The position numbers were made by a program, and so were the translations under genes. This document shows positions 10,591-50,987 of a stretch of 57,474 nucleotides of DNA, piece by piece (within the stretch, counting starts at the first letter, position 1; each line of letters opens with the position of its first letter). Source of the stretch: Thermoleophilia bacterium. Lineage in GTDB: Bacteria; Actinomycetota; Thermoleophilia; UBA2241. The notes under the pieces were generated by a model. That model did no database searches and was not told the DNA's origin. It was given only the letters and a program-made list of their open reading frames with translations. The stretch is from positions 1 through 57,474 of the forward strand of contig JAFGAW010000279.1 of assembly GCA_016933475.1 (NCBI GenBank). The letters are read 5' to 3'.

Positions 10591-10592
10591 CG

Positions 10593-32880: not shown

Positions 32881-33857
32881 CCCTGGAGTTCCGGCTGGGT
32901 CTCGCCGCCGAAGGCGACGACCATGAGGCCGGCGAGCACGATGAGCGCACCACCGGCGATCGTCCACGACGAGGGGCGCTCGCCGAGGAAGACGAAGGCG
33001 TAGACGGGCGCCGTGACCGGCTCCAGGTAGCCCATGATCGGGGCGTGCTGCACTTTGATGTACCGGAGCCCGTCCATGAACAGGCTGAAGGAGAACGCGG
33101 TCGCGACGAGGCCGAGCAGCAGCCCGATCACGAGGTCGGTCGCCGTCGGCGTGTAGCGCCCGACCACCTCATACAGCCCGAGCGGCAGGACCGCCAGCGT
33201 GGTGAAGGCGCTCTGCACGAAGACGACCGCCGTGCTGGGGACGTGTCGCCGCTGCAGCGACTTGCCGAGCAGGAGATAGACGGCGTACAAGACCCCAGCG
33301 CCCCAGGCATAGAGCAGGCCGAGCACCGAGAGGCGAGCCTCGGCGAGCCCGGGCACGAGGATGAGAGCCATCCCGCCGAGACTCACGAGGAGGGCCACGT
33401 ACACCGCCGGCTCGGTCCGCTCGTGGAAGATGAGCGGGGCGACGACCGCGAGGTAGACCGGAGCCAGATACGAGAGGAAGATCGCCACCGAGACCCCGGC
33501 CTCCCTGATGGCGAAGAAATAGAGCAGCAGGTTGACGGCGAGGGTGGCGCTGATGCCGAGCACGCGGACGGGGACGCCGGGCGCGCGCAGCGTGCCAAGC
33601 AGACGGCGGGGCAGCACCACGCCGCCGAGGGCCAGAGTGGCGAACGCCATGCGCACGACCAGAAGCATGCTCGCCGGCATCGTCGCAGAACTGACCATCG
33701 TACCGATGGAGCCGTTGACGACCGCGGCGCCGCCCGTCTCGATGTAGCCGCGCAGGCGGCCGGGGCGCCCGTAAGCGGGCGCCCCGGCCGCTTCGTGATC
33801 GAGCGGTGCCGCCCCCTGCAGGCCCTGCGCCGTCGCGCTCTCAGGCCCGAGGGGCAA
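32877..33857 (-). CDS. EamA/DMT family transporter (tandem paralogue); start uncertain
   Basis: HAPIMGYLEPV motif and collinear with the neighbouring EamA. TTG at 33857 is assumed as start. Confidence 0.8.
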   Translation of the reverse strand: MPLGPESATAQGLQGAAPLDHEAAGAPAYGRPGRLRGYIETGGAAVVNGSIGTMVSSATMPASMLLVVRMAFATLALGGVVLPRRLLGTLRAPGVPVRVLGISATLAVNLLLYFFAIREAGVSVAIFLSYLAPVYLAVVAPLIFHERTEPAVYVALLVSLGGMALILVPGLAEARLSVLGLLYAWGAGVLYAVYLLLGKSLQRRHVPSTAVVFVQSAFTTLAVLPLGLYEVVGRYTPTATDLVIGLLLGLVATAFSFSLFMDGLRYIKVQHAPIMGYLEPVTAPVYAFVFLGERPSSWTIAGGALIVLAGLMVVAFGGETQPELQG

Positions 33858-35640
33858 ACTGCAACCGCCGCGTGAAGACCTCGTTGAAGCGCGCGTCGGT
33901 CGCCAGGTCGAGAAATTCGATACGTGCACGCAGGGCGGCCATACGCCGGCGCGCGCCCACGTCGATCAGGGCCATTTGCGCGCCGACGCCGGCAGCGTTG
34001 CCGACAAAGGCCACCCGGTCGCGCGACACCGGGGGCAGAAGGTCGAGGCGCAGGGCCGCGCCGACGTCGAGATAGTTGCCGAAGGCTCCCGCAACGTACA
34101 CACGGTGCAGGTCGCCCGGCTCCAGTGCGAGCTTCTCGAGCAGCAGGAGCCAGCCGCTGGCGATGGCGCCCTTCGCGAGCTGCAGGGCGCGCACATCGTG
34201 CTGGGTGAAGACGATCGGCCCGATGGCGCCCTCGGTCAGCAGGTACTCGAGACCGTTCTCGCCCCTGCGGACCAGCTCATGGGGCTGCATCCGGCCGGTA
34301 TGGTCGACCACTCCGCTGGCGACGAGCCCGGCGAGCAGGTCGACCACGCCCGAGCCACACAGACCCAGCGCGGGCTGGTTGCCGATGGTCGCGACCTCGA
34401 CGGGCAGGCCGGCGTCGTCGATGCGCACGCGCTCGATGGCCCCGGCGACGGCCTTCATACCGTGGGTGATCTGGTAGCCCTCGAAAGCCGGCCCCGAGGC
34501 GCAGCTCGTCGCCGTGACGCGGCCGTCGAGCGCTACGGCGATCTCGGTGTTGGTGCCGATGTCGACGGCCAGGCAGGGCCGGCGCTTGGAGGCCAGGCGC
34601 GTCGCCGCGACCACGGCCAGCGCGTCGGAGCCGACGAAGCCGGCGATCGGCGGCGGGAAGTGCACGCCGCCCTCGGGGTTCATCGCCAGCCCGAGCTCGG
34701 CCGCGCGCAGCGTGAGCGGGTCGGCCACGGCGGGCGCGAACGGCGCCGAGCCGAGCCCGACGGGTGAGAGACCCAAGGCGAGATGGTGCATCGCCGTGTT
34801 GCCGACCACCGTCATGTCGTAGATGTGCCGGGGATCGACGCCGTTGCGCTCACAGAGCTCCCCGAGGACCTGGTTGATGCCGTCGCGCACGGCCGTCGCG
34901 AGCTCGCGCGCGCCGTCCGCATCGACAGCGCGGGCGATGCGCGAGATCACGTCCTCGCCGTAACGCATCTGCGGGTTCTCGGTCGCCTCCTGGTCGACCA
35001 GGCGGCCGGCCTCGAGGTCGAAGAGGTAGGCGATGACCTTGGAGGTGCCGATGTCGACGGCGGCGCCGTAGGCGACCGCCTGCACCTCGGGCGGCTCGGC
35101 GTCGATGACGCGCCCGTCGTACGAGGTGACCATCGCTCGCCAGCCGTGTCGCCGCAGGAGGTCGGGCAGCTCGCGGGTCGCGCCGAGGGCCGCCTGTCGG
35201 CCGTCGCCGCAGGCGACGCAGACCGCGAGCAGGCGCTCCTGGTCGGCGCGCTTGTCCTCGAGCGTGGCCGGCGGCAGCTCCATCAGTCGGCGCACCACGG
35301 CCGTCTTCGCCCGGCCGTGGTGCAGCTTGGAAGCCGTGAGGATCCGCCGCCGCCCACCGGCCTGTCGCACCTCGATGCTGACGCGCGCCGACACTGGACG
35401 CGCCTGACAGGCGAGACGCCACCCGTCTTCGCGAAGGTTCGCCGGAAGGCGTTTGGACTCGACCTCGGTGACCTCGCTGAGCTCGCCCGAACCCAGGCGG
35501 ACGAGACACTTGCCGCAGGTGCCGCGGCCGGCGCAGTCACTGGGGATCGCGATGCCGGCCGCGAGCAGCGCAGTCAGCAGGTCCTGCTCCTCGCCGATCT
35601 CAAGTGTCACCCCGACGGGCTCGATGAAGACCTTCGCCAC
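33841..35640 (-). CDS. Reductive activator of corrinoid proteins (RACE/RACo, ASKHA ATPase with N-terminal [2Fe-2S])
   Basis: CAGRGTCGKC...RLAC ferredoxin domain. DIGTS, NPQ..YGEDVISRI, DIGTNTE, GPAFEG, CGSG, AGAFGNY. Confidence 0.93.
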   Translation of the reverse strand: MAKVFIEPVGVTLEIGEEQDLLTALLAAGIAIPSDCAGRGTCGKCLVRLGSGELSEVTEVESKRLPANLREDGWRLACQARPVSARVSIEVRQAGGRRRILTASKLHHGRAKTAVVRRLMELPPATLEDKRADQERLLAVCVACGDGRQAALGATRELPDLLRRHGWRAMVTSYDGRVIDAEPPEVQAVAYGAAVDIGTSKVIAYLFDLEAGRLVDQEATENPQMRYGEDVISRIARAVDADGARELATAVRDGINQVLGELCERNGVDPRHIYDMTVVGNTAMHHLALGLSPVGLGSAPFAPAVADPLTLRAAELGLAMNPEGGVHFPPPIAGFVGSDALAVVAATRLASKRRPCLAVDIGTNTEIAVALDGRVTATSCASGPAFEGYQITHGMKAVAGAIERVRIDDAGLPVEVATIGNQPALGLCGSGVVDLLAGLVASGVVDHTGRMQPHELVRRGENGLEYLLTEGAIGPIVFTQHDVRALQLAKGAIASGWLLLLEKLALEPGDLHRVYVAGAFGNYLDVGAALRLDLLPPVSRDRVAFVGNAAGVGAQMALIDVGARRRMAALRARIEFLDLATDARFNEVFTRRLQFAPRA

Positions 35641-35731
35641 GCCAGCCTCCTGTCTGTCGCCGTTCGTCGTCCCGCGCGCATGCGTCGCATCGCGCGTCAG
35701 TCTCTGTCGCCGGTCGGCCCGTGACGGTCAC

Positions 35732-37052: not shown

Positions 37053-38426
37053 TCACTGAACGGTGGCGATGATCTCGTTGATGCGGTCGGCGACGGCGGC
37101 CTCGAGAGGCGCGACCGTGTGGCCGTCGAGCGTCGTCCTCACGAGCTCGGCGGCGGCCTCGGGCGCGCCCTTGCAGCCGCCGGCGACCCAGGCGTCCCAG
37201 GAGCTGCGGTCGAGCAGTCTGGGGCGCCAGACGTCCTTCATGTGGCGCCGGGTGTGGCGCTGGCTCAGGTAGTTGCCGCCGATCCCGACCGCGTGGATCG
37301 CCTCGGCGGCGAGCGTCTCCTCGTCGACGGGGATGCCGGCGGCTATGGCGGCGTTCCACGAGTGGATCTCGCTGTCGAGGGCCAGCGCGACCGCCGAGCA
37401 GACGGTGCCCCCGGCGAGTGTGCCGGCACCGGAGACGATGTCGGCGCCGGCGAGCACCGCGCTCATCGACGAGAAGGCGTTCTCGCTGCAGGCCTGCCAG
37501 TCGGGGGCCGGCGAGCGCGTGAGCATGGCCGGCGCCAGCGTCGGCAGGCCGGCGCGGGCGGCGAGCTGGGCGGCGGCGATCAGCGCGGCGGACGTCTGTG
37601 GGACCGCAGCATCCGCGGTCGCGTACATGAACGGCGCCCCGGGCGCGACCGCCTGCACGGCGACGCAGGCGGCAAGGATCCCGGCGTGGCGGCGGACGAC
37701 GGTCTCGCTCAAGCCGGGATCCCCCCATTTGGCGCCGGGCGCGAGCTCGGCCGTAGCCGTCACCGGCAGGCCGTGTGCGGCGAAGGCGAGGGCGTTCTCG
37801 AGCGATCCTCCGAGAGAGAGCGGCGAGCGGCGGCGAGCGGCATCTAAGCCACCGGCCACGGCGGCGGCGATGCGCGCCGCCGCCTCGGCTTCGGCGGCCG
37901 TGCGCAGAGTCGTCACGTGCACGTGCTTGCCCGCGGCAGCGAGGCACACCTGCAGCGCGCCCAGCGGCGTCTCTCGGGCGGGGCACAGCGGCGGGCCGTA
38001 AAGCACCGCCACCTCAGGCAGCGCGTCGGCGAGACGGCAGACGGCGGCGAGGTCTGCGCCGGTCGCGGGGCGCGGCTCCGCCGCGCCCGCCGCCAGCGTG
38101 AGCGCGGCCGGACCCCCGGTCGCGAGCCACGCGGCGCCGGAGGCGAGCTCGACGTCGCGGCCCTCGAGACGGGCGCCGAGGCTGAAGCGTGGCGGCGCCA
38201 CGTCGAGGGCCGCGTGGACGAGCCGCGGCGCGATCCGGCCGCGCCCGTCGGCGACGCGCGCGCCGGCGGCGACGAACGCCCGCGCCGTCACCTCTCCGGT
38301 GACCAGGACGCCGTCGTCCGCCAGCAGCCGGAGAGCCCGTTCGTGCAGGGCGGCAAGCTCGTCATCGCCGAGCACGCGCAGGTCGAGCCGCGCCGGCGTC
38401 GTCGTGGTCTCGGGCTTCGGGCTCAT
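37053..38426 (-). CDS. MttB-superfamily protein, strongly degenerate active-site loops (paralogue 2)
   Basis: N- and C-termini typical (VDEETLA, VGIGGNYL..HTRRHM). SPL, P.TLAG and DM/LxTG loops are absent. Confidence 0.8.
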   Translation of the reverse strand: MSPKPETTTTPARLDLRVLGDDELAALHERALRLLADDGVLVTGEVTARAFVAAGARVADGRGRIAPRLVHAALDVAPPRFSLGARLEGRDVELASGAAWLATGGPAALTLAAGAAEPRPATGADLAAVCRLADALPEVAVLYGPPLCPARETPLGALQVCLAAAGKHVHVTTLRTAAEAEAAARIAAAVAGGLDAARRRSPLSLGGSLENALAFAAHGLPVTATAELAPGAKWGDPGLSETVVRRHAGILAACVAVQAVAPGAPFMYATADAAVPQTSAALIAAAQLAARAGLPTLAPAMLTRSPAPDWQACSENAFSSMSAVLAGADIVSGAGTLAGGTVCSAVALALDSEIHSWNAAIAAGIPVDEETLAAEAIHAVGIGGNYLSQRHTRRHMKDVWRPRLLDRSSWDAWVAGGCKGAPEAAAELVRTTLDGHTVAPLEAAVADRINEIIATVQ

Positions 38427-39856: not shown

Positions 39857-41322
39857 CGGCCCTCCGCGAGCTCGGCGTCGGCGCGCGCCACGATCGCGCG
39901 CAGCTCGGCGTGGACGTCTTCGGGCAGCGGAGCGGGGTCGTAGGTGTCGAGGATCTCGTCGGCGATCTCGGTCGCCCTCTCGAGAGCGCCCTGCTTGCCA
40001 CCCTGCAGCCACACGTCGTAGGGCGTACGGTCCCAGACCGTCGGGCGCCAGATCTCCTCCATGTGGCGACGGGTGTGCTTCTCGGCCAGGTAGGTGCCGT
40101 TGGGCCCGATGCGCTCGATCGCCTCGAGGGCCAGGGTCTCGTCGTCGACGACGACCCCGCCGGCGACCTTCTGCACGATGCCGTAGATCTCGCTCTCCAT
40201 CACCATGTGCGGGTAGGAGAGGACCTTCGAGCCGTTCAGCAGGCCACAGCCGTTCATCATGTCGGCGCAGGTCATGACGCTGGCAAAGGTCGACAGTGAG
40301 TCGTCGACCGCCGCCTGCCAGTCGGGCTCCTTGGCGCCGGTCGCCATCGTCCCCATCGCCATCGGCACGCCGTAGAAATGAGCGAGCTGCGTGGAGGCGG
40401 CGGCCAGGAGGTAGTCCTCGGGGCTGCCGCCCGTATAGCCGCCCGTCTTGAGGTCGATGACGCTCGGGGCGCCGGCGAAGAAGGCCGGGACTCCGGGGGA
40501 GGCGAGCTCGAGCAGGACCACGCCGGAGAGCGCCTCAGCGTTCTGCACGACTAGGGTGCCGGCGAGCGTCGCCGGCCCTGTCCCCGCGGCCAGCGGCATC
40601 GGCATGAAGCCGCTGGCGAGACCGTGCTCGGCGGCGACCAGGTTGGCCTCGAGGTTAGGGCCGTCGTGGGCCAGCGGGTCGACGGCGCACTGCATGAAGC
40701 TGAGGATCGGCCGGCGGCGCAGCTCGTCGCTGCCGCCGGCGATCGCCGCCGCCATCTCGACGAGGTAGCGCGCCGGCTTCTCGCCCACGGTCGTCACCGT
40801 CTGGAAGTGCTTGCTCGTGTTGGTGAGGACCGCCTCGGCGTCGTGCAGCGCCTTGGTCGCCGGCGGTACATCCTGCGAGGTGACGACCGGACCCCAGTAA
40901 TAGCTTACGTTGGGGAGGGCGTCGACGAAGCGCGCCGAAGTGGCCGCGTCGGCCTTCGTCGAGGGTCGCTTCTCCCCGGTGCGGTGGTCGTGGACGAAGA
41001 CACCGCTGCCGTCGTTGGAGAGGTAGCAGTGAGCGCGGTCGATGGTCATGTCGCACTCGGGGTCGCGCCCCGCGAGGAGGTACCGGGAGGGCACCTGCGC
41101 CACCGCCTCGGCGACGACGGCACGGGGCACCTTCACGACCTGCGTGGCGCGGTCGACCGCGCAGCCGCCCTTCTCCAGCACATCGAGGGCGCGCGTACTG
41201 GGGAAGCGGACGCCGGTCTCCTCGAGAACCTCGAGCGTCGCTTCGTGGATGCGCTCGAGCTCGCTCGACGAGAGGACGTCCCAGCGGAGACGCGGGATGA
41301 TGGGGTTGATCCTCGACGACAT
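39853..41322 (-). CDS. MttB-superfamily methyltransferase (non-Pyl), paralogue 4
   Basis: IHEATLEVLEETGV, GTGPATLAG, NAEALSG, DLKTG, IGPNGTYL..HTRRHM. Confidence 0.92.
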   Translation of the reverse strand: MSSRINPIIPRLRWDVLSSSELERIHEATLEVLEETGVRFPSTRALDVLEKGGCAVDRATQVVKVPRAVVAEAVAQVPSRYLLAGRDPECDMTIDRAHCYLSNDGSGVFVHDHRTGEKRPSTKADAATSARFVDALPNVSYYWGPVVTSQDVPPATKALHDAEAVLTNTSKHFQTVTTVGEKPARYLVEMAAAIAGGSDELRRRPILSFMQCAVDPLAHDGPNLEANLVAAEHGLASGFMPMPLAAGTGPATLAGTLVVQNAEALSGVVLLELASPGVPAFFAGAPSVIDLKTGGYTGGSPEDYLLAAASTQLAHFYGVPMAMGTMATGAKEPDWQAAVDDSLSTFASVMTCADMMNGCGLLNGSKVLSYPHMVMESEIYGIVQKVAGGVVVDDETLALEAIERIGPNGTYLAEKHTRRHMEEIWRPTVWDRTPYDVWLQGGKQGALERATEIADEILDTYDPAPLPEDVHAELRAIVARADAELAEGR

Positions 41323-41463
41323 GGACGGCGACCTCGCTCGTTGACCGACGACAGGGGTGGGGCAGGAGGAGGTCAGGCGTGGCCTGCCCCCTCAGGGCGC
41401 GGCCGAGCGAAGGTTACAGGCCGCAGGCGCGGTTGATCGTGCTGACGGAGTCCGCATGCACGC

Positions 41464-41476
41464 GGCTACTCTAGCA
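41464..41476 (-). promoter_or_regulatory. Extended -10 promoter TGCTAGAGTAGCC (identical copy at 44260-44272)
   Basis: The same 13-mer lies upstream of two minus-strand mttB transcription units. Confidence 0.5.
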
Positions 41477-41655
41477 CCGGCCCGTCGGCCGGTACACCTG
41501 CCGCGCGCGAGGACCGCGCGCCCCCCTCGCCCGCGCCGCTCGCGCGACGCGCGGGGCGCCGGTACAGTGAGCGCACGTGGCACGGAGAGCCGGCGGACGG
41601 CAGGTGCGGGCCAGCTCACTGTCTCCGCGACCGCGAGCCGAGAGGGGGCCGCAGC

Positions 41656-42741
41656 ATGAGGATCGTCTGCGACTGCGAGAAGGTCCGCCGCAACGCGGCG
41701 GCCGTCGTCGCGCTCTGCGCGCCCTACGGCATCGCCGTAGTCGGGGTCACCAAGTGCGTCTGCGGCGAGCCTGAGGTGGGCCGCGCGATGCTGGCCGGCG
41801 GCTGCACGATGCTGGCGGATGCGCGCCTCGACGACATCCGCCGCCTGCGTGCCGGCGGCATCGAGGCGCCTGTCATGCTGCTCCGCCTGCCCGCCTTGAG
41901 CGAAGTCGACGAGGTCGTGGTCCTGGTCGAGTGGAGCCTCGTCTCCGAGGTCGAGACCGCACGCGCTCTGGCGGTCGCGGCCGCGCGGCAGGGCCTCCTC
42001 CACCGCGTTCTGCTCATGGTCGAGACCGGCGACCGCCGGGAGGGCGTCATGCCCGCCGACGCGGTCGCCGTCGCGCGCGAGCTCGACGGCCTCCCGGGCC
42101 TGGAGCTTGCCGGGCTCGCCACCACCCTCAACTGCCTCTGCGGCGTGCTGCCGACGCCGCGTCACCAGCAGGAATTCGTCGAGACAGTCGAGATGGTCGA
42201 GGCCGCCCTCGGCCGCCGTCTCGAGATCGTCTCCGGCGGCCACACCGGCAACCTCCACCTCATCAAGGCCGGGCAGGTGCCGGCGCGCTTCGACCAGGTC
42301 CGCGTCGGCGAAGCGATCCTGACGGGCACCGACTTCTCCACCTGGGCCGACCTCGGCGTCCCCCACCAGGACGTTTTCAAGGTCTACGCCGAGGTCATCG
42401 AGGTCAAGGAGAAACCCTCGGCCCCCGACGGCGCCGTCGGTCGCGACGCCTTCATGCGCGTGCGCGAGTGGCCGGACCGCGGTGTGCGGAGGCGGGCGAT
42501 CCTCGCCCTCGGCGAGATCGACCTCGACACCGCGAGCCTCAGACCGTCGCGCCCCGGCCTCGAGGTCGTCGGCTCCAGCTCCGACCATCTCGTCCTCGAC
42601 GTCACCGACGCGCGACCGCCGGTACGACTCGGCGAGGAGCTCGAGTTCGACACCCTGTACCCCGCGGTATCGACCGGCTGGTCGAGCACGTTGACCACCA
42701 AGGTGGTACTGCCGATGCGGGACGCGGGCGCCTCCGGCTGA
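41656..42741 (+). CDS. Alanine/ornithine racemase-family PLP enzyme
   Basis: GVTK (PLP Lys), LMVETGDRREG, NCLCG, SGG, RVGEAI, SSDHL. Orr/YhfX-like fold-type III. Confidence 0.88.
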   Translation: MRIVCDCEKVRRNAAAVVALCAPYGIAVVGVTKCVCGEPEVGRAMLAGGCTMLADARLDDIRRLRAGGIEAPVMLLRLPALSEVDEVVVLVEWSLVSEVETARALAVAAARQGLLHRVLLMVETGDRREGVMPADAVAVARELDGLPGLELAGLATTLNCLCGVLPTPRHQQEFVETVEMVEAALGRRLEIVSGGHTGNLHLIKAGQVPARFDQVRVGEAILTGTDFSTWADLGVPHQDVFKVYAEVIEVKEKPSAPDGAVGRDAFMRVREWPDRGVRRRAILALGEIDLDTASLRPSRPGLEVVGSSSDHLVLDVTDARPPVRLGEELEFDTLYPAVSTGWSSTLTTKVVLPMRDAGASG

Positions 42742-42809: not shown

Positions 42810-44228
42810 CTACGAAGCGTGCGCCTCCCGCTCCTCCCCCGCTTTCGCGACCAGCACGGCCAGACCCGCGGCGACGTCCGCGTCGAGCTCGAACTCGCGC
42901 GGCTCGGCGAGCAGCGCCGCCGCGCGCTCCCGTGCCCTGTCGAGGAGGGTCTTCGAGCCCTCGGCCTGCCAGCGGTCGAAGACGCCGTGGTCGAAAAGGT
43001 CGGACTGCCAGATCTCGCGGAAGTGCTTCCTCGTGTAGGGCCGGGCCAGGTGGTTGCCGCCCGGCCCGACGGCGAGGATCTCCTCGACGGCGAGGGCCTC
43101 GTCGTCCACCGGCAGCTCGGCCATGAACGCCTTGGCGTAGCTCACCAGGTGGTCGCCGACGACGATCGACTCGTACGAGCTCTGCAGCCCCGACTCGAGG
43201 TAGCCGACATCGTGCAGCAGCGTCGCCCGCGACAGGGCGCCGAGCACGGCGGTGAGGGCGGCCTCGGCGGTCCACTGCTGGTCGAGCGTCTTCGAGTCAC
43301 AGCAGGCCGCGTAGGCGAAGCTCGGCAGGCCGTACCAGCGCGCGAGGTCGGTCTGCGCCTGGTGACCGGCGAAGACGCGCGCCGATGAGTACACGTCGAC
43401 CATGGTACGCATGTTCATGGCGCCGACGCCGGCGCCCCAGACGAAGGGCGCGCCGGCCTTCGCCGCCTGGCTCAGCACGAGACCGGCGAGCACCTCGGCG
43501 TTGGCGACGACGGCGACGGCGCCGATCGAGGCGGGCGCCGTCGTGCCGGCATTGGTCCCCGGGGCCCAGATGAGGGGTACGCCCAACTCGGCGCAAGCGA
43601 TGACTTTGCTCGCGCCGTCCTCGTCGAGCATGAGCGGCGGTGAGGGCATAGCGTAGATGCCGAAGCTGTCGGCGGCGCCGGCCAGCACGCACATCTCGCG
43701 GATCCTCGCCACCACATGGCCGTCGCGCGGCGCGACCAGGAGCGGCTTGCGCGTGCCACGGAGCATGGCCTCGACCTGGGCGACGTCGTCGACCGCCTGT
43801 GGCACGTCCTCGGGCAGGCCCATGGACATGACGAAGTCGAGGTTTTCGAGCTTCTCGCAGAGGACGGCCTGACCCTCGACGTCGGCCTTGCGCACGCGGC
43901 GGCGCTCGCCGGTCTCGAGGTCTCTCAGGTAGAGGACGTCGGAGCCGGTGCCGAAGTAGCTGTGGGCCACGTCGAGGACGAGCGGCTCGGTCGCGCCGGC
44001 GCGCGGCTTCAGCGACCAGGTGCGCGGCGCGATCTCGAGCGCGGTCTCGACCACGGGCGCGGGCAGGCGGACGCGCGTGCCCTCGACCCGCGCGCCGGCG
44101 GCGGCAAAGAACTCGCGTGCCGGCGCGTACTTGACCTCGACCCCGGACTCGGCCAGCACGCGCAACGTGGCCTCGTGCACCCGGTGGCACGCGTCGTCGT
44201 CCCACACCCTCAGCATCGCGCTGTTCAC
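42810..44228 (-). CDS. MttB-superfamily methyltransferase (non-Pyl), paralogue 5; close relative of paralogue 3
   Basis: VWDDDACHRVHEATL, FGTGSD, DSKTLDQQ, LSRATLLHDVGYLESGLQSSYE, VGPGGNHL. Confidence 0.92.
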   Translation of the reverse strand: MNSAMLRVWDDDACHRVHEATLRVLAESGVEVKYAPAREFFAAAGARVEGTRVRLPAPVVETALEIAPRTWSLKPRAGATEPLVLDVAHSYFGTGSDVLYLRDLETGERRRVRKADVEGQAVLCEKLENLDFVMSMGLPEDVPQAVDDVAQVEAMLRGTRKPLLVAPRDGHVVARIREMCVLAGAADSFGIYAMPSPPLMLDEDGASKVIACAELGVPLIWAPGTNAGTTAPASIGAVAVVANAEVLAGLVLSQAAKAGAPFVWGAGVGAMNMRTMVDVYSSARVFAGHQAQTDLARWYGLPSFAYAACCDSKTLDQQWTAEAALTAVLGALSRATLLHDVGYLESGLQSSYESIVVGDHLVSYAKAFMAELPVDDEALAVEEILAVGPGGNHLARPYTRKHFREIWQSDLFDHGVFDRWQAEGSKTLLDRARERAAALLAEPREFELDADVAAGLAVLVAKAGEEREAHAS

Positions 44229-44457
44229 ACCCGACCTCCTCTGCGGCTCCTCCGGCGGCGGCTACTCTAGCATCGTCCCGGGGCGCGCGTGGGCCCGCCG
44301 GCGCCGACGTCGCGCGGGCAGCGGCCAGGCGGCGGCGTCGTGAACGTCACGGCCGAGCCGCGGCGAGGCCTGCGGCGACGGGCGTGCGAAGTTCGCGCGG
44401 CGCCGCGACGAGCGTCGCCGATGCTTGGGCGAACCTCGGTCGCCGTGAGCCCCGCCC

Positions 44458-44486
44458 TTTACCCCACCCGGCGGCGGAGGTACTGT
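44458..44486 (+). promoter_or_regulatory. Putative sigma70-type promoter of the Pyl-mttB
   Basis: TTTACC-N17-TACTGT, followed by GGAGGT RBS and GTG at 44517. Confidence 0.5.
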
Positions 44487-44516
44487 GAGGTCGAAGGGGC
44501 TCCCGGAGGTGATCAC

Positions 44517-45986
44517 GTGAAACGCAACCTACACGCCGGACATGCGCGCAGCGGCGGCCTCAGCCTCAACGTCTTCACCGAGGCCGAGATGGACGACATC
44601 CACTTCGCGACCCTGGAGGTGCTCGAGCGCACCGGGGTCTGGGTCGAGGACGACGACGCGCTCGACGTCTTCGCCGACGGCGGCTGCCGTGTCGACCGCG
44701 AGACGCGCCGGGTCAACATCCCGCCGCACGTCGTCGAGGAGGCGATCCGCTCCACTCCGGCCAGCCTCGTGCGCGGGGCGCGCGACCCGAAGGACCGGCT
44801 CCTCCTCGAGCCGGGTCGCGTCTCGTTCTGCAACTTTGACGAGGGCATCATGGTCAACGACCTGCGGACCGGCGAGCATCGTGAGCCGGTCCTCCAGGAC
44901 GTCGCCGAGATCGCCCGCTTGGTCGACGCCCTCGACCACATCGACATGTACGAACCGGCGGGCAGCCCGACGGACCGACCGCAGGAGACCGCCGTGCTGC
45001 ACGGCACAGAGGCGGCGCTGCACAACACGACCAAGCCGGTGGGGACCGAGTCGACCTCCGCCTGGGAGGTGCGCAAGGTCCTCGAGATGGGGGCCGCGGT
45101 CGTCGGCGGCGTGGACGAGCTCCGCGAAAACCCGATCGTCGGTTTCGGCGTGTGCCCCGTCAGTCCGCTGAAGCTGCCGCGCGACGCCACCGAGGTCGTC
45201 ATCGAGTGCGCGCGGAACGGGATCCCCTGCGGCTGCCTGTCGATGGCGATGTCCGGCGGATCGTCGCCGGTCACGCTCATCGGCACCTTCGTGCAGCACA
45301 ACGCCGAGGTGCTCGCCGGCATCACGCTGGCCCAGCTCACGACCCGCGGCACCCCCATGGACTACGGCTCGTCGACGACCGCCATGGACCTGCGCCTGGC
45401 GGCGGCCAGCGTCGGCTCGCCGGAGCTGGCCCTGTTCAGCGCCGCGACGGCCCAGATGGCCAAGCGCTACCTCATACCGAGCTTCGTTGCGGGGTTGTAG
45501 GCGGATTCGAAGCTCGGTGACGCCCAGACCGGTCACGAGAAGACGCTCACCGGCCTGTTGGCTGCGTTGGCAGGGGCCAACCAGATCTACGGGGCCGGGA
45601 TGATCGAGTCGGGAGTCACCTTCGACTGCGCGCAGCTCGTCGTCGACGACGAGATCGCGGCGATGATCAAGCACACCGTGATGGGGATGCCGGTGGACGA
45701 CGAGCAGATGGCGGTGGAGGACATCGCCGCGGTCGGTCCGTTCGGTGACTTCCTCAGCCTCGAGGCGACCCTGCGCCACATGCGCGCGCTCAGCCAGCCG
45801 AGGTATCTCGACCGGCGCGTACGCGAAGACTGGAAGGAGCGCGGCGGGTCCGACCTCTACGAGCGGGCGCGGGCGGCGGCGCTGGAGATGATCGAGAGCC
45901 ACGCGCCCGAGCCGCTCGACCCCGACGCCGCGCGGCAGATCCGCGCCATCGTCGAGAGCGCGGATCGCGAGCGCGGCGTCGGCTGA
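44517..45986 (+). CDS. mttB: Pyrrolysine-containing trimethylamine:corrinoid methyltransferase MttB (489 aa; in-frame TAG at 45498-45500 = codon 328)
   Basis: ORFs 44289..45500 and 45558..45986 are in one frame. Readthrough gives IPSFVAGL-O-ADSKLGDAQTGHEKTL...AGANQIYGAGM, matching the Pyl context of Methanosarcina MttB. Also CPVSPL, SMAMSGGSSPVTL, HNAEVL, YGSSTT. Confidence 0.9.
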
Positions 45987-46195: not shown

Positions 46196-47176
46196 TCACG
46201 AGTCGTCGGGCTCGCCCGGTCGGTCGGACGCGTCAAGCGGCATCTCGCCCCCCGGCCCCGGGCCGGTCGGCGTCTTCGGCAGATCGGTGCCGGGCTGGGC
46301 GATCGGGCTCGCGTCGTCGCCGGCCGCCTCGTATTCGTCCGTCATCTCAGTGATCCCGAGCTCGGCTGCGTGGCGCGGGTCGACCTCGGGCAGGATGTGG
46401 CGCAGGAACTGGCGCGTGCGCGGGTCCTTGGGGTTGAAGAAGACCTCGTCCGGCGGACCCTGCTCGATGAAGTAGCCCTCGTCCATGTAGACGACGCGGT
46501 CGGCCACATCGCGCGCGAAGCCCATCTCGTGGCTCACGACGATCATCGTCATACCGCCGTCGGCGAGCTCCTTCATCACCTTGAGGACCTCGCCGATGAG
46601 CTCCGGGTCGAGGGCGCTGGTGGGCTCGTCGAAGAGCATCAGCAGAGGGTCCATCGCCAGCGCGCGGGCGATGGCCACGCGCTGCTTCTGCCCGCCCGAG
46701 AGCTGGCTGGGGAAGTAGTCGACGCGCTCGGCCAGCCCGACCTTGGTGAGCAGCTCGTGCGCCTTCTTGACGGCGTCCTCCTTCTTCTCGCCCTTGACCA
46801 GGACCGGCGCCTCGATCACGTTCTCGGTCGCGTCCTTGTGCGGGAAGAGGTTGAACTCCTGGAAGACCATCCCGCACTTCATGCGGATCTCGTGGACGGC
46901 CTGCTTGAAGCCCTTGCCGTGGCCGCCGCACATCGCATGCACGCCGCCGATGCTGATGTCGCCGGTGGTCGGGTCCTCGAGGAAGTTGAGACAGCGCAGG
47001 AAGGTGCTCTTGCCTGAGCCGGACGGCCCGATGAGCACGATCACCTCGCCCTTGCGCACCTCGAGGTCGACGCCCTTGAGCACGTGCAGCTTGCCGAAGT
47101 ACTTCTGCAGGCCCTCGATCTTGACGATGACCTCGCGCTCGGCGAGCGGCACGCTTGCTGGAGACGGTGTGGCCAT
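46196..47176 (-). CDS. Polar amino-acid ABC transporter ATP-binding protein (GlnQ/ArtP-like) with acidic low-complexity tail
   Basis: [49 protein letters not shown]. Confidence 0.93.
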
Positions 47177-47180
47177 GCTG

Positions 47181-48386
47181 CTACTCCCTTGCCTTGTCGC
47201 GCTCCATACGGCGCTCGAGCTTCGCCTGCCAGAAACTGAAGAAGATGGTCAGGGCCCAGTAGAACGCCGCCGCGACGACCAGGGTCGAGAGGAAGTTGAA
47301 GGTCGCCGCTCCGGCGAGCTGGGCCCGTCGCAGCAGCTCCTCGACGGTGATCACCGACACCAGCGAGGTGTCCTTGATGAGGGCGATGAAGTCGTTGCCC
47401 ACTGCCGGGATCACGATCTTGAACGCCTGCGGCAGGATGATGCGGCGCTGGGTCTGCCAGCCGCTCAGGCCGAGCGCCCATGCCGCCTCGGTCTGGCCTT
47501 TCGGCACCGCCTGGATGCCGGCGCGGAAGACCTCGGTGAGGTAGGCCCCGTAGTTGAGCGACAGCGCCGCGACGCCGGCCCAGAACGCCGGCGGGTTGTA
47601 CTCGGGTGAGAAGCCGAAGCGCTGGATGACCTCGGGCGTGACCTGGTAGATGAAGATGATCTGCAGCAGGAGCGGGGTGCCACGGAAGAGTGAGGTATAG
47701 AAGGTCGCGATCAGATAGGGGATGCGGCCGAGCGCCATCCGCCACATATAGGCCCAGCTCCCGTAGCGCTCCCAGGCCTGTTTGAAGGTCATCTTCTTCG
47801 AGAGGCGACCGAGGGCGCCGAGGAGGGCGAGGATGCTGGCCAGCACGATCGAGATCACCGTCAGCGCGACCGTGTTGATGGCCCCCTCGGCGATGAAGCG
47901 GAACCACGTGCGCATGACGTTGAAGCTGAAGAGCTGGCCCGCTCCGGCGCGACCCTCCGAGGCGAAGCTCCACTCGTACTCCACGGTCTCGCCGGTCAGC
48001 GTGACCAGTTCCACCCTGAACTCGTAGTCGCCCTTCTCGTACCGCGTGTCCCACTTGAACTGGATGCCGGAGGTGGCCCGGGAGATCGCCGGCACCTCGC
48101 TCGGCGGGCGGATGAGCTCCTGCTCCTGACCGTTGATGAAGAGCCGGCACTGATCGAAGGCCAGCTCGGCCCCGTTGGGCTCGTAGTTGACGATGACCTG
48201 GGTGCCCGTCCAGGTGCTGACGCCCTTGGGGTCGTCGGGGTTCGGGATGACCCCCGTGACGACAGGCGTGCCCGGTGCCGGGCTGGCGGTCGTCTCCTGG
48301 CCCAGCGCCACCGGCGTGAGCGCGGTCACCGCCAAGGCGAGCGCCGCGGCGAAGAGAGCGACGCTCCGGTACAACCGTCTCTGCAT
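47181..48386 (-). CDS. Polar amino-acid ABC permease (HisM-like) with N-terminal signal peptide and extracytoplasmic beta-rich domain
   Basis: [41 protein letters not shown]. About 150 extra N-terminal residues. Confidence 0.9.
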
Positions 48387-48492
48387 GAGAGTGACCTCTC
48401 CTAGTGGCTTAGCGGCGGGGGGCCACTCCGGACCCCCCGCCGCCAGCGCTTCTGTCCGCGTCGATGACTCTAGCGCGCGACCGGAACGTCAG

Positions 48493-49374
48493 CTACTCAC
48501 GGACCGTCAGGTCGAGGCCGTTGTACCACTTCTTGGACATCTCCGTGAGCGAGCCGTCCTCGTGCATCGTGGCGATGGCGTAGTCGAGCAGCGCGACCCA
48601 GTCGGTCTCGCCCTCGGCGACGGCGAACGCGAGGTCCTCGTAGTACAGCGGCGAGCCCGAGAACTCGAACGCCTGGCCCTCGAGGATAGCCTGCTGGCCC
48701 GTGGGGCCGGCGGTCATCACGAAGTCGAGGTTGCCGTTGCGCAGGTCCGGGAAGGTGTCGGCGTCGGTCGTGTAGGTCTTGACCTCAGCCTCGCTCTCGC
48801 TCTTGAGGAAGTCGTAGTAGGTCGTCGCCGCGCCGACGCCGACCGTCTTGCCGGCGAGGTCTTCGACGCCGGTGATCTGCGGGCCGCCTTCCTTGACGAA
48901 CACCTGGCCGGACGTGAAGTAGTACGGCTGGGTGAAGTCGATGGTCTTATCGCGCTCCTCGGTGATCGTCATCGAGCCGATCGAGACGTCGAAGCGGCCC
49001 TGGTTGAGGCCGGCCGGGATGGTCTCCCACGCCGGGTTCTCGAACTGGACCTCAAGGCCGAGGATCTCGCCCATCCTGAGGGCGACGTCGACGTCGAAGC
49101 CGACGAGCTCGCCGGTCGCCTCGTCGATCGAGCTCTGCGGCGCGTAGTTGGCGTCGTTGGCGACGATCACGGTGCCGCGCTCGACGATCTTCTGCGCCAA
49201 GCCGGTGGGCTCGCGCCCGAGGATCTCGGCGGCACGCTCGGCCGCGCTCCCCGTCAGCGCCGTCTCCTCGGCGGCCGGCTCTTCGGCCTCGTCGCCGCAG
49301 GCGGCCAGGGCGAACATCGCCACGGCCGCGAGGAGGACGACCGTCCCCAAGATGAACCACTTCCCCTTGCTCAT
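48493..49374 (-). CDS. Polar amino-acid ABC substrate-binding lipoprotein (SBP family 3)
   Basis: LAAC lipobox, DANYAPQS, GFDVD, SMTITEER...DFTQPYY, DGSL..MSKKWY. Confidence 0.92.
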   Translation of the reverse strand: MSKGKWFILGTVVLLAAVAMFALAACGDEAEEPAAEETALTGSAAERAAEILGREPTGLAQKIVERGTVIVANDANYAPQSSIDEATGELVGFDVDVALRMGEILGLEVQFENPAWETIPAGLNQGRFDVSIGSMTITEERDKTIDFTQPYYFTSGQVFVKEGGPQITGVEDLAGKTVGVGAATTYYDFLKSESEAEVKTYTTDADTFPDLRNGNLDFVMTAGPTGQQAILEGQAFEFSGSPLYYEDLAFAVAEGETDWVALLDYAIATMHEDGSLTEMSKKWYNGLDLTVRE

Positions 49375-49586
49375 GCTCCGTCCTTTCGATGATCTTCATC
49401 CCGTCCGCGCGCGACGCGACCTGGGACGGCCGCCGCCGCGCGTGCGACCCCCGCCGCAGACCGGGACTTACCGTGCCGCCTCTCCCCCGAGCGGCATGTG
49501 TCTCGATTTATACAGCAAGGAGGCGAGAACACAACCGCAGCAGGCTCGCCGGCCCTGCGACGGCCGAGCCCGAGGCGGTTCATACC

Positions 49587-50987
49587 TCACCCCAGCAGGC
49601 GCCGCAGCCGACGGTCGACGGCCGGTGCAAGGGCAGGCGGCTCATGCGTGCGGAGCAGATCGAGTGCCAGTTGCGCAGCGCGCGCGCGCGACGTCGGTGC
49701 GGCGGAAGTGGGCTCGACCAGCGGCAGCGCGAGCGAGGCCGACGCGCGCCCCTCCTGCGCCGCGACCGCGGCCGGTGGCCCTCGCCGGGCGGGTCGCGCG
49801 AGCGCCGGCTCGGGCGTCGCGCCGCCGAGTCCCGCCGCCACGGCGCGGGCGCGCTCGGCGACATCGACCGCGAGCAGCAGTTCTTCGCAGCTGAAGATAC
49901 GCCCGCCGGAGACCATCCCCACGCCGGTCAGCATATCGACGCCGGCGAGCAGTGACAGGTACGTGGTCGTGGCGTCGTCGAGGGCCGACTGCCACGAGGG
50001 CTCCTTGGCGCCCGACGAGTTGACGCCGCACTGTGTCGGGAGGCCGTAGTAGCGCCCTATGTCGGCCGTGGCGGCGCCCATCACCGTGTCCTCGGGCGCG
50101 CCGCCGGTGAAGTCCCCGGTCTTCAGGTCCATGACGCTGGGGATGAGGCAGATGAAGACCGGGGCGCCTGGAGCCGTCGCCTGGACGGCGGCCACGGCGC
50201 CCAGCGTCTCGGCGATGCCGACGACGAGGGAGCCGGCCATCGTGATCGGTGTGGTCGAGCCGCCCATCGGCATGCTGACGAACCCGATGGGCACCCCGGC
50301 GGCGGCGAAGACCAGACCGGCCTCTAGGGTGCCCTCGTCGTTGCCCAGGGGGGTGACCGTGCCGAGCAGGGCCGAGACCGGCGGCTCCGCACGCAGGCGG
50401 TCGTCGTCGTCGCCACAGAGAGTGCGGGCCATCTCGACCGCGACCGCAGCCTCCTGCGGCTCCACGACCGTCACGGTCTGCACGTGCTTGCCGGTGTTGG
50501 CGACGGCCTCGTAGAGCTCGTGGAGCCCGCGGACCTCGGCCGGCCGGTCCTGGGCGCTCACCGCCGGCCAGCAGAAGTCGACCGCCGGCAGGGCGTCGAC
50601 GAGGCGGGCGATCGCCGCCACGTCGGCGGCCGTCGTCGCCCGCTTCTCGCCGCTCTCGGGGTCGTAGATCTCGACGCAGCAGCCGTCCGTGGTGAGCAGC
50701 GAGCCGGCACCGGTCACCAGGGGACTCCCGGCGCGGGCGCCGAGCGTCAGCCGACGCGGCGCCCGCCCGACGAGCTCGCGCACGACGCCGGGCGGGATCG
50801 TGACCCGAGCCCCGTCGGCCGCGGCGCCGGCGGCGACGAGCGCCTCTCGGGCCCGCGCCGAAGGCACGCTGAACCCGACGCCGGCGAGCACGTCGAGGGC
50901 GGCTGCGTCGAGACGTCGCAGGTCGTCGTCGCCGAGGATCCTGAGGCGCCCGGCCGCGCCCGCGGCAGGGCTCTGCGTGTGTGTCAT
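49587..50987 (-). CDS. MttB-superfamily methyltransferase (non-Pyl), paralogue 7; eroded C-terminus
   Basis: NTGKHVQTVT, VTPL, GGSTTPITMAG, DLKTG..GGAPED. The conserved GPGG..FL..HT segment is replaced by Ala/Pro/Arg-rich sequence. Confidence 0.85.
   Translation of the reverse strand: MTHTQSPAAGAAGRLRILGDDDLRRLDAAALDVLAGVGFSVPSARAREALVAAGAAADGARVTIPPGVVRELVGRAPRRLTLGARAGSPLVTGAGSLLTTDGCCVEIYDPESGEKRATTAADVAAIARLVDALPAVDFCWPAVSAQDRPAEVRGLHELYEAVANTGKHVQTVTVVEPQEAAVAVEMARTLCGDDDDRLRAEPPVSALLGTVTPLGNDEGTLEAGLVFAAAGVPIGFVSMPMGGSTTPITMAGSLVVGIAETLGAVAAVQATAPGAPVFICLIPSVMDLKTGDFTGGAPEDTVMGAATADIGRYYGLPTQCGVNSSGAKEPSWQSALDDATTTYLSLLAGVDMLTGVGMVSGGRIFSCEELLLAVDVAERARAVAAGLGGATPEPALARPARRGPPAAVAAQEGRASASLALPLVEPTSAAPTSRARAAQLALDLLRTHEPPALAPAVDRRLRRLLG

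What the first reader, a model, noticed from the sequence alone, without database searches (positions are those of the whole stretch)
44517..45986. Pyrrolysine-encoding amber codon in an MttB of a probable actinomycete
Seen: two ORF-track entries are one reading frame interrupted only by TAG at 45498-45500 (codon 328), with intact MttB sequence on both sides (FVAGL*ADSKLGDAQTGHEKT). Established: methanogen TMA methyltransferase MttB has Pyl at the equivalent position (O334 in Methanosarcina barkeri) just before the D-x-K motif, and bacterial Pyl is best known from Firmicutes and Deltaproteobacteria. Inference: this high-GC, probably Actinomycetota organism uses a 22nd amino acid. pylTSBCD is not in this window, and I cannot confirm novelty for the lineage.
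Basis: partly seen in the sequence, partly recalled or inferred. Interest (0 to 1): 0.92.

Follow-up and report, generated by a model that had tools for sequence, protein, structure and literature searches.

The report
Pyrrolysine-coding mttB in a Thermoleophilia genome
An in-frame amber stop codon in a trimethylamine methyltransferase gene of an uncultured soil or sediment actinobacterium almost certainly encodes pyrrolysine, the 22nd amino acid; the case is real and cleanly supported, but pyrrolysine use in Actinobacteria has already been noted briefly in print and in databases.

Summary
Window 44517-45986 (+) is one MttB reading frame with a single TAG at 45498-45500 (codon 328). That TAG aligns exactly with pyrrolysine residue 334 of the solved Methanosarcina barkeri MttB.

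- The MAG (2.49 Mb, 80% complete) carries pylSc, pylSn, pylB, pylC and pylD, all above curated cut-offs, and a tRNA-Pyl(CUA), on contigs C76 and C103.
- It has 5 mttB and 7 mtbB genes, each with one TAG at the family's Pyl column.
- All 16 fetched relatives (63-97% identical) keep the TAG.
- dN/dS downstream of the TAG equals dN/dS upstream.
- Records of relatives are titled Thermoleophilia (Actinomycetota).

PylSc is found in 51/55 sampled species of the own family and 9/55 of a second family. It was found in 0/190 genomes of the other sampled Thermoleophilia families, and a 401-genome phylum sample added no further holder. TAG remains a common stop codon, so decoding is ambiguous.

Novelty is limited. 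A 2022 census lists "two Actinobacteria" with PylRS, a 2023 peat study reports Actinobacteriota MAGs expressing Pyl-type mttB/mtbB, and NCBI already names such a PylS.

What appears undescribed:
- the scale of the trait in this lineage;
- the non-canonical pyl cluster order;
- a synonymous-site-constrained hairpin candidate after the UAG, which formal covariation does not support.

The parts
44517..45986 (+). mttB: trimethylamine:corrinoid methyltransferase gene, 489 codons, GTG start, TGA stop, one internal UAG
   Evidence: Pfam MTTB E 6.7e-91. 378 bits to M. barkeri MttB 7xcm/7xcl over residues 2-488, against 223 bits to the non-Pyl MtgB 2qne.
45498..45500 (+). UAG codon 328, read as pyrrolysine
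   Evidence: Aligns to X334 of 7xcl_A. Conserved in 16/16 relatives. Same column in 5 paralogues of the genome. dN/dS downstream is 0.09-0.56, upstream 0.09-0.54.
44505..44509 (+). GGAGG, Shine-Dalgarno-like, 7 nt before the GTG start
   Evidence: Read directly from the sequence. The start is supported by alignment of residue 2 with residue 3 of M. barkeri MttB.
45513..45539 (+). Candidate RNA hairpin (CUC-G-GUGAC, 10-nt loop, GUCAC-GAG) starting 13 nt after the UAG. Status: hypothesis only.
   Evidence: For: two of its pairs use the third positions of rare GGT codons. GGT stands at the +11 Gly in 19/19 rows (17 distinct genes), against 8.3% genome-wide, and it is the only one of 109 conserved four-fold-type columns with T3 at 0.9 or more. 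Against: the RNAalifold covariation term is +0.51, there are 0 compensatory double changes, and 173/500 shuffles score as high.
33844..35727 (-). RACo/RamA-type reductive activase of corrinoid proteins (2Fe-2S + RACo linker/middle/C-terminal domains); inferred helper of the methyltransferase systems
   Evidence: Pfam RACo_C_ter E 1.3e-73, Raco_middle 1.2e-52, Fer2, RACo_linker. Its link to this mttB is inferred from the known role of the family.
42840..44243 (-). Divergently oriented non-Pyl MttB-superfamily paralogue next to the Pyl mttB. It is one of six further MTTB matches in the window; the others are 15194-16648, 37062-38387, 38453-39916, 39868-41286 and 49827-50969, all on the - strand.
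   Evidence: PF06253 matches without internal stops. They carry sense residues at the Pyl column.

Best explanation
The gene at 44517-45986 encodes a pyrrolysine-dependent trimethylamine:corrinoid methyltransferase (MttB). The organism is an uncultured Thermoleophilia (Actinomycetota) bacterium.

Decoding. UAG at codon 328 is decoded by a dedicated amber-suppressor tRNA-Pyl(CUA). That tRNA is charged by a split bacterial-type pyrrolysyl-tRNA synthetase (PylSc + PylSn) with pyrrolysine made from lysine by PylB, PylC and PylD. All of these are encoded elsewhere in the same genome.

Enzyme function (inferred from the family). Pyl at this active-site position activates trimethylamine for methyl transfer to the Co(I) corrinoid of a partner protein. 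Corrinoid-protein genes exist elsewhere in the genome, and a RamA/RACo-type activase gene is in the window. The methyl group then most likely enters tetrahydrofolate-linked C1 metabolism in an anaerobic methylotroph.

Genetic code. UAG is used ambiguously. It still ends about one in six ordinary genes in this genome, so Pyl insertion competes with termination and is not a genome-wide reassignment.

Shown versus inferred. Shown: gene anatomy, alignment to Pyl334, presence of the machinery, conservation and selection. Inferred: actual Pyl insertion, substrate, the methyl acceptor and the physiology.
For: TAG position:
- TAG aligns to X334 of M. barkeri MttB 7xcl_A, with the flanks P-S-(F/Y)-V-A-G and D-(S/A)-K ... 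D-x-Q-x-G-H-E-K-T conserved.

Machinery in the same MAG:
- pylSc 310.9 bits (cut-off 178.15). Its closest solved relative is D. hafniense PylSc, E 6e-92.
- pylSn 121.8 bits (cut-off 51.15).
- pylB 440.1 bits (cut-off 348.2).
- pylC 309.4 bits summed (cut-off 248.3).
- pylD 185.6 bits (cut-off 150.05).
- tRNA-Pyl(CUA) called by ARAGORN. It folds into a compact cloverleaf with a 5-nt D loop, one base between the acceptor and D stems, and a CUCUAAA anticodon loop.

Demand for Pyl:
- 5 mttB genes have TAG at the Pyl column.
- 7 mtbB genes have TAG at one shared column.
- No MtmB was found.

Conservation and selection:
- 16/16 relatives keep the TAG.
- dN/dS downstream (0.09-0.56) matches upstream (0.09-0.54) in 12 orthologue pairs.

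Not a binning artefact:
- In relatives with long contigs, pylSc and TAG-mttB share a contig: G041 C1, and G118 C33 about 5 kb apart.
- Contig GC is 0.708 (window contig C272), 0.716 (C76) and 0.710 (C103).
- pylSc is over the cut-off in 22 of 24 other family genomes.

TAG is still a stop:
- TAG ends 189 of 1207 confident ORFs (15.7%).
- Of the 28 in-frame TAG junctions outside the methyltransferases, 24 lie between two separate Pfam domains or just past a gene's last domain, 3 had no Pfam match, and 1 (PurE) was marginal.

Physiology:
- A heme-copper oxidase was found in 0 of 1 (G000) and 2 of 9 congeners; acetyl-CoA synthase in 6 of 9 congeners.
- There is an aldehyde:ferredoxin oxidoreductase next to pylBCD and an MTHFR on C54.
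- A corrinoid-protein gene directly follows the mtbB-mttB pair on C54, and another lies in the pyl locus.
Against: - No protein-level evidence exists. Pyl insertion is inferred.
- The MAG is 80% complete with 5% estimated contamination. The pyl genes are on contigs other than the window's, so their linkage in this very genome rests on binning plus the relatives.
- No corrinoid-protein gene or methylcorrinoid:THF methyltransferase gene lies next to this particular mttB.
- Acetyl-CoA synthase was not found in G000 itself, nor in 3 of 9 congeners, two of which are 95-97% complete. The downstream fate of the methyl group is therefore open.
- RF1 gave only a partial match below the curated cut-off (374 bits, profile positions 130-357), so its status is unclear.
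- The expression evidence is only contigs of about 95% identity from an RNA library, which may contain DNA.
Confidence: 0.92

Rival explanations
1. The TAG is a real stop. The gene is a pseudogene, or is split into a 327-aa product and a separate 3' ORF (TTG at 45558).
For: Under table 11 the ORF list shows two pieces, 44289-45500 and 45558-45986. TAG is an ordinary stop in 15.7% of confident ORFs.
Against: The TAG sits at the exact Pyl position of the solved enzyme. It is kept in 16/16 relatives down to 63% identity. The 3' part is under the same purifying selection as the 5' part. One Pfam domain spans the TAG. The full Pyl machinery is present.
Confidence: 0.03
2. Binning or assembly artefact. 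The pyl contigs (C76, C103) belong to another organism in the sample, and this actinobacterium cannot make or insert Pyl.
For: The MAG has 295 contigs and about 5% estimated contamination. The pyl genes are not on the window's contig.
Against: pylSc is over the cut-off in 22/24 other genomes of the family and in 51/55 in a second draw. In G041 and G118, pylSc and TAG-mttB lie on the same contig. In G012 and G015 the whole pyl set is in one cluster on long contigs. pylT is 99-100% identical in five congeners. GC of the contigs matches.
Confidence: 0.02
3. Genome-wide reassignment: every TAG is read as Pyl, as in the recently described archaeal code, and is not an ambiguous codon.
For: The organism has a high demand for Pyl (12 genes). 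The RF1 model gave only a partial match below its cut-off.
Against: TAG ends 189/1207 confident ORFs. Of 28 TAG junctions tested, 24 lie between two separate Pfam domains or just past the last domain of ordinary genes (SecY/Adk, MreB/MreC, FtsX, MurB and others), 3 had no Pfam match, and 1 (PurE) was marginal. A Pyl-encoding relative uses TAG for 34% of stops, more than the Pyl-lacking relatives at 26-27%.
Confidence: 0.02
4. The UAG is read through, but with a standard amino acid (near-cognate or another suppressor tRNA) and not with pyrrolysine.
For: None is specific. It is only that no mass-spectrometric proof of Pyl exists.
Against: A dedicated tRNA with a CUA anticodon, PylS and the full biosynthetic set are all present. 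No other CUA tRNA is among the 37 tRNAs found. The site is the catalytic Pyl position.
Confidence: 0.01

Closest known systems
Methanosarcina barkeri MttB (Pyl334), structures 7XCL/7XCM/7XCN
   Same: Same family and length. The alignment runs over residues 2-488 (E about 1e-111). UAG is at the identical position, and the motif around Pyl is conserved. It is accompanied by Pyl-type mtbB genes.
   Different: The host is a high-GC actinobacterium and not a methanogen. No MtmB was found. The methyl acceptor is presumably tetrahydrofolate and not coenzyme M (inferred). There are five Pyl-mttB copies plus about 33 non-Pyl superfamily paralogues in a 2.5-Mb MAG.
Bacterial Pyl systems of Firmicutes/Deltaproteobacteria (e.g. 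Desulfitobacterium hafniense PylSc/PylSn, structures 3DSQ, 2ZNI)
   Same: PylRS is split into PylSc and PylSn genes. PylSc is most similar to D. hafniense PylSc: 311 bits, against 224 for archaeal N-terminal-less PylRS and 195 for Methanosarcina. TAG stays a frequent stop.
   Different: The gene order differs from the pylT-Sc-B-C-D-Sn order that I recall for D. hafniense; that order comes from no call. In relatives G012 and G015 the order is pylB-C-D-pylT ... pylSn - radical SAM - corrinoid protein - pylSc. In G000 and G008 the cluster is split in two, with a PorA-like gene between pylD and pylT.
Actinobacteriota MAGs of Stordalen Mire expressing Pyl-type mttB and mtbB (Ellenbogen et al. 2023, PMC10805028; passages read)
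   Same: Same phylum, same pair of gene families, and a soil or peat habitat. Two of the relatives fetched here are titled palsa_647 and fen_672.
   Different: In that paper's main text, Pyl genes were called by truncation at the amber codon. The words pylS, pylT and pylB do not occur in it.
Non-Pyl MttB superfamily (MtgB glycine betaine methyltransferase, 2QNE/9YCE)
   Same: Same fold family (223 bits). The window and the genome are full of such paralogues.
   Different: Those carry a sense residue at the Pyl column (Leu in 2QNE) and, by the literature, act on quaternary amines. The window gene belongs to the TAG clade (100/99 support).

Membership tests
Pyl-dependent trimethylamine methyltransferase MttB | Member of the MTTB family over its whole length | tested here: met
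   PF06253 E 6.7e-91, profile positions 30-494 of 500. 378 bits to M. barkeri MttB.
Pyl-dependent trimethylamine methyltransferase MttB | In-frame UAG at the position of Pyl334 | tested here: met
   Codon 328 aligns to X334 of 7xcl_A.
Pyl-dependent trimethylamine methyltransferase MttB | UAG and the 3' coding part kept by selection in orthologues | tested here: met
   16/16 relatives keep the TAG. dN/dS downstream is 0.09-0.56.
Pyl-dependent trimethylamine methyltransferase MttB | Pyrrolysine actually present in the protein; TMA:corrinoid methyl transfer activity | not testable with these tools
   Needs mass spectrometry and an enzyme assay.
Pyl-dependent trimethylamine methyltransferase MttB | Cognate corrinoid protein and reductive activase available | tested here: met
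   Six B12-binding matches in G000, including one directly after the mtbB-mttB pair on C54 and one in the pyl locus. A RACo-type activase lies in the window. None is adjacent to this mttB, so the pairing is inferred.
Pyrrolysine insertion system (pylT, pylS, pylBCD) | Pyrrolysyl-tRNA synthetase catalytic subunit and N-terminal tRNA-binding subunit | tested here: met
   TIGR02367 310.9 bits against cut-off 178.15. TIGR03912 121.8 bits against 51.15. D. hafniense PylSc E 6e-92.
Pyrrolysine insertion system (pylT, pylS, pylBCD) | Biosynthesis genes pylB, pylC, pylD | tested here: met
   All are over their NCBIfam cut-offs and adjacent on C76.
Pyrrolysine insertion system (pylT, pylS, pylBCD) | tRNA with CUA anticodon and the unusual compact tRNA-Pyl shape | tested here: met
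   ARAGORN calls tRNA-Pyl. The fold shows a 5-nt D loop, one base between the acceptor and D stems, and a short variable region. There is no match to Rfam at E up to 1. That this shape is the tRNA-Pyl hallmark is recalled, not from a call.
Genome-wide UAG-to-Pyl code (archaeal type) | TAG no longer used as a stop at gene ends | tested here: not met
   TAG ends 15.7% of 1207 confident ORFs. Of 28 TAG junctions, 24 lie at domain or gene boundaries, 3 had no Pfam match and 1 was marginal.
PYLIS-like recoding RNA element downstream of UAG | Conserved secondary structure supported by covariation | tested here: inconclusive
   Covariation term +0.51. 0 double changes, and 173/500 shuffles as high. 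Two synonymous sites are strictly kept so as to pair. Five TAG-mttB genes lack the stem.

The most novel reading that the evidence does not exclude
Two families of uncultured, mostly anaerobic Thermoleophilia may be one of the largest bacterial reservoirs of pyrrolysine decoding. PylSc was found in 60 of 110 sampled species of these two families, while a 2022 census counted 81 Pyl bacteria in total and only two Actinobacteria. These bacteria would run an unusually Pyl-heavy methylamine metabolism (at least 12 UAG genes in a 2.5-Mb genome) from a non-canonical pyl cluster. In one mttB clade they may use a short hairpin 13 nt after the UAG, held in place by two rare GGT codons, to favour Pyl insertion over termination in a genome where UAG is still a common stop.
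Probability: 0.3. Interest if true: 0.65.

Novelty: new member of a known kind. Interest (0 to 1): 0.45.

Why it matters
Pyrrolysine is the rarest natural expansion of the genetic code, and in bacteria it is usually discussed for Firmicutes and Deltaproteobacteria. This locus shows a complete, selection-maintained Pyl system in a high-GC soil/sediment actinobacterial lineage.

The trait is lineage-wide (51/55 and 9/55 sampled species of two families). It serves many genes per genome and coexists with frequent use of UAG as a stop.

Why that matters:
1. Annotation. These mttB and mtbB genes are split or truncated under table 11.
2. Carbon and nitrogen cycling. Bacteria that consume tri- and dimethylamine compete with methylotrophic methanogens in peat and sediments.
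3. Genetic-code engineering. This lineage offers a new, GC-rich clade of PylRS/tRNA-Pyl pairs.

It does not overturn anything. The phenomenon in Actinobacteria is already noted in the literature.

Tried and rejected
- Other Pyl proteins. A genome-wide screen looked for in-frame TAGs with a coding signature on both sides. It gave 41 junctions: the 12 methyltransferase sites, 1 mtbB/mttB gene junction, and 28 others. Pfam on the 28 showed no domain clearly spanning a TAG. L083 (PurE) is marginal, because the match runs 13 residues past the TAG into low-complexity sequence. Three had no Pfam match. The screen needs at least 60 codons on each side and strict GC patterns, so it can miss cases.
- The sixth '1 TAG' MTTB match (C258:1065-2540). 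Its TAG lies 359 alignment columns upstream of the Pyl column, so it is not a Pyl site.
- MtmB: no match in G000, which is 80% complete.
- Rfam search of the pylT region: nothing at E up to 1.
- Downstream RNA structure: RNAalifold and the count of structure pairs give no covariation support. The mtbB genes show no shared hairpin.
- TAG depletion as an adaptation: rejected. TAG share of stops is 34.4% in G041 (Pyl+), 27.2% in G042 and 26.2% in G030 (both Pyl-), and 15.7% in G000. The samples are small (130-224 ORFs) and come from my own crude ORF caller.
- RF1: only a partial match below the cut-off. Not followed up.
- Acetyl-CoA synthase and heme-copper oxidase: not found in G000. In an incomplete MAG, absence is not shown.
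- Reads. Only Logan contigs were available, so neither depth nor expression can be claimed. X1 may be the source sample. Parts without cover mean nothing.
- A named PylS phylogeny (donor lineage) could not be built.
- Literature. These searches found no paper describing the Thermoleophilia Pyl system:
  - 'pyrrolysine' + 'Thermoleophilia': 1 incidental paper.
  - 'pyrrolysine'/'mttB'/'Actinobacteriota'.
  - 'pyrrolysine'/'Actinobacteria'/'pylS'.
  - 'RBG-16-64-13'/'UBA2241'/....
  - 'pyrrolysine' + 'Actinomycetota'.
  The only relevant passages were those cited.
- Rows left out:
  - One search used 39 of the 43 MTTB matches; four short fragments were dropped.
  - The tree used 38 of those 39.
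  - One search used 24 rows. L099 was left out because my motif search failed on it. L105 and L052-L055 were left out because of frame breaks. L041 and L044 were left out as near-copies. L095=L046 and L096=L048 are the same places, so the 24 rows are 22 distinct genes and the 19-row subclade is 17.
Full report
OBSERVATION. Window 44517-45986 (+) reads as one frame from a GTG start to TGA at 45984-45986. A GGAGG lies 7 nt upstream of the GTG. The frame is interrupted only by TAG at 45498-45500, codon 328, in the context FVAGL*ADSKLGDAQTGHEKT. Both halves carry the strong third-position GC bias of real genes in this genome: GC3 0.91 and 0.92. Read through, the 489-aa product matches Pfam MTTB in one stretch that spans the TAG (E 6.7e-91, profile positions 30-494 of 500).

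DOES THE TAG SIT AT THE PYL POSITION? Yes. A search of all PDB chains puts the protein next to M. barkeri trimethylamine methyltransferase (7xcm_A 378 bits, 7xcl_A 375 bits, residues 2-488 on 3-495). Codon 328 falls on residue 334 of that chain. That residue is printed X in 7xcl (the pyrrolysine) and K in the variant 7xcm. The surrounding motif is conserved. Non-Pyl relatives score much lower (MtgB 2qne, 223 bits) and have Leu in that column.

IS THE MACHINERY THERE? The window is contig C272 of a MAG of 2.49 Mb in 295 contigs, 80% complete, 5% contamination, GC about 0.715. The following were found:
- pylSc on C103 (TIGR02367, 310.9 bits, cut-off 178.15).
- pylSn about 4.5 kb away on the other strand (TIGR03912, 121.8 bits).
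- pylB, pylC and pylD in a row on C76, all over their cut-offs.
- A tRNA-Pyl with anticodon CUA at the end of C76.
The tRNA folds into a compact cloverleaf with one base between the acceptor and D stems, a 5-nt D loop, a long anticodon stem with loop CUCUAAA, and a very short variable region. It does not match Rfam's families at E up to 1. That this shape is typical of tRNA-Pyl is my recollection. PylSc is a 288-aa bacterial-type enzyme. It is closest to D. hafniense PylSc (E 6e-92), ahead of archaeal PylRS.

IS THERE DEMAND FOR PYL?
- The genome has 43 MTTB matches. I aligned 39 of them and dropped four short fragments.
- Five have TAG exactly at the Pyl column with the MttB active-site motif. 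The sixth TAG-bearing match has its TAG 359 columns upstream and is not a Pyl site.
- Seven MtbB (dimethylamine methyltransferase) genes each carry one TAG, all in one column, motif DGL-O-VG.
- No MtmB was found.
- Three mtbB-mttB pairs are tandem (C54, C151, C248). On C54 a corrinoid-protein gene follows directly.
- In a tree of 38 paralogues, the five TAG genes form one clade (100/99). Their sister is a paralogue with Val at the Pyl column, 52% identical to the window protein and lying just upstream of a TAG-mttB on C191.
- A genome-wide screen for other in-frame TAGs flanked by coding signal recovered the 12 methyltransferase sites. Among the 28 other junctions, none had a Pfam domain clearly spanning the TAG (one marginal, three without a Pfam match).

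IS IT CONSERVED AND TRANSLATED? A scan of one genome per species found 16 full-length relatives, 63-97% identical. All are in records titled Thermoleophilia or Actinomycetota MAGs.
- Twelve show TAG at the same codon directly.
- The other four have single-base indels elsewhere, likely assembly errors, and show TAG in the same DNA column.
- dN/dS after the TAG (0.09-0.56) matches dN/dS before it (0.09-0.54) in 12 pairs.
- Contigs from a groundwater metagenome and from an RNA-seq library bridge the site, and no alternative letter was listed there. The table was cut, and contigs prove neither depth nor transcription.

IS IT THE SAME ORGANISM?
- PylSc is over the cut-off in 22 of 24 other genomes of the family.
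- In G041 and G118, pylSc and TAG-mttB share a contig.
- pylT homologues occur in 15 of 18 family genomes searched.
- In G012 and G015 the whole set forms one cluster of about 11 kb, ordered pylB-C-D-pylT ... pylSn - radical SAM - corrinoid protein - pylSc. In G000 and G008 the cluster is split, and a PorA-like gene sits between pylD and pylT.

DISTRIBUTION.
- In a 301-genome sample of the class, PylSc occurs in 51/55 genomes of the own family and 9/55 of a second family. It occurs in 0/190 genomes of ten other families.
- In a 401-genome sample of the phylum, only G000 and one genome of that second family have it.
- These are samples, so the statement is 'not found in those searched'.
- Four family members lack it. 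Two of them are small (1.7-1.8 Mb), 98% complete genomes.

HOW UAG IS USED.
- TAG ends 189 of 1207 confident ORFs in G000, against TGA 82.1% and TAA 2.2%.
- In 400-kb samples, TAG ends 34.4% of ORFs in a Pyl-encoding relative and 27.2% and 26.2% in two Pyl-lacking ones.
- TAG is therefore not avoided, and decoding must be ambiguous, as in other Pyl bacteria.
- The RF1 model gave only a partial hit below its cut-off, which I leave open.

PHYSIOLOGY (inferred).
- No heme-copper oxidase was found in G000 or in 7 of 9 congeners.
- Acetyl-CoA synthase is present in 6 of 9 congeners but was not found in G000.
- An aldehyde:ferredoxin oxidoreductase lies beside pylBCD, an MTHFR on C54, and a RACo-type corrinoid activase in the window.
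- This fits an anaerobic methylotroph that passes methyl groups from tri- and dimethylamine through corrinoid proteins into folate-bound C1 metabolism. The acceptor methyltransferase was not identified.

A SIDE OBSERVATION. Thirteen nucleotides after the UAG lies a hairpin candidate, CUC-G-GUGAC / GUCAC-GAG with a 10-nt loop (45513-45539).
- Formal covariation tests give nothing: covariation term +0.51, no double changes, and 173/500 shuffles as high.
- Two of its pairs depend on the third positions of two xGT codons. The Gly before His is GGT in 19/19 rows (17 distinct genes, down to about 60% protein identity), while GGT is 8.3% of Gly codons genome-wide.
- It is the only one of 109 conserved four-fold-type columns with T in the third position in 90% or more of the rows.
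- The five TAG-mttB genes that lack the 5' half use GGC or GGG.
- This may be nucleotide-level selection for a recoding aid in one clade, or inheritance plus an unknown constraint. It is not needed by all Pyl genes here.

WHAT IS KNOWN.
- Guo et al. 2022 (PMC9630628; passage read) counted 81 bacterial PylRS genomes, including 'two Actinobacteria'. A 2025 review repeats this.
- Ellenbogen et al. [quoted passage not shown] The genes were identified by truncation at the amber codon, and the main text does not mention pylS, pylT or pylB.
- NCBI names a 74%-identical protein 'pyrrolysine--tRNA(Pyl) ligase large subunit [Actinobacteria bacterium]'.
- Five literature searches found no description of the Thermoleophilia system itself.

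VERDICT. It is a clean, well-supported member of a known kind and not a first for the phylum. The scale in Thermoleophilia, the cluster layout and the possible hairpin are the parts that seem undescribed.

Noticed in passing
whole genome G000; window 15194-16648, 37062-38387, 38453-39916, 39868-41286, 42840-44243, 49827-50969 (all -): There is a very large MttB-superfamily expansion: 43 PF06253 matches in a 2.5-Mb, 80%-complete MAG. Seven of them are in this window, and most have sense residues at the Pyl column, so they are presumably methyltransferases for quaternary amines or unknown substrates.
   Followed up: partly
G000 contig C191:681-2156 (locus L019): This non-Pyl paralogue has Val at the Pyl column but the rest of the MttB active-site motif intact. 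It is 52% identical to the window protein, is sister to the TAG clade (100/100), and lies directly upstream of a TAG-mttB. It may be a Pyl-to-sense (or sense-to-Pyl) transition form.
   Followed up: partly
window 45513-45539: A hairpin candidate after the UAG is held by two rare xGT codons (GGT 19/19 rows against 8.3% genome-wide). It has no formal covariation support and is absent from five other TAG-mttB genes.
   Followed up: yes
G000 C103:19299-19988 and 20187-21203 (L012); L092, L094: A corrinoid-protein gene and a radical SAM gene sit between pylSc and pylSn, and they are kept there in relatives G012 and G015. They are possibly part of the pyl cluster in this lineage.
   Followed up: partly
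genomes G021, G042 (same family f1, genus g10): These are small (1.7-1.8 Mb), 98%-complete family members without PylSc. G042 also has an unusual 28.6% TAA stops at GC 0.67. This looks like loss of the Pyl trait together with genome reduction.
   Followed up: no
G000 C75:about 9570-10781 (L074): A protein matches bacterial archaeo-eukaryotic release-factor-like families (baeRF_family3, E 1.3e-37). No link to UAG decoding is shown.
   Followed up: no
window 35735-37138 (-) and 41446-42738 (+): A lysine-2,3-aminomutase-like radical SAM gene and an alanine-racemase-N-domain (PLP) gene are interleaved with the MttB paralogues. An amino-acid-type ABC transporter (46199-49395, -) lies just downstream of the Pyl mttB.
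   Followed up: no
G000 C128:6024-6707: The best RF1 (prfA) match covers only profile positions 130-357 in a 233-aa open frame and is below the curated cut-off. It may be a truncated gene, a frameshift or an assembly break.
   Followed up: no
L052-L055 (relatives' mttB loci): Four long-contig MAG records carry single-base insertions or deletions inside otherwise conserved mttB genes. They are probably long-read homopolymer errors and not true frameshifts.
   Followed up: partly
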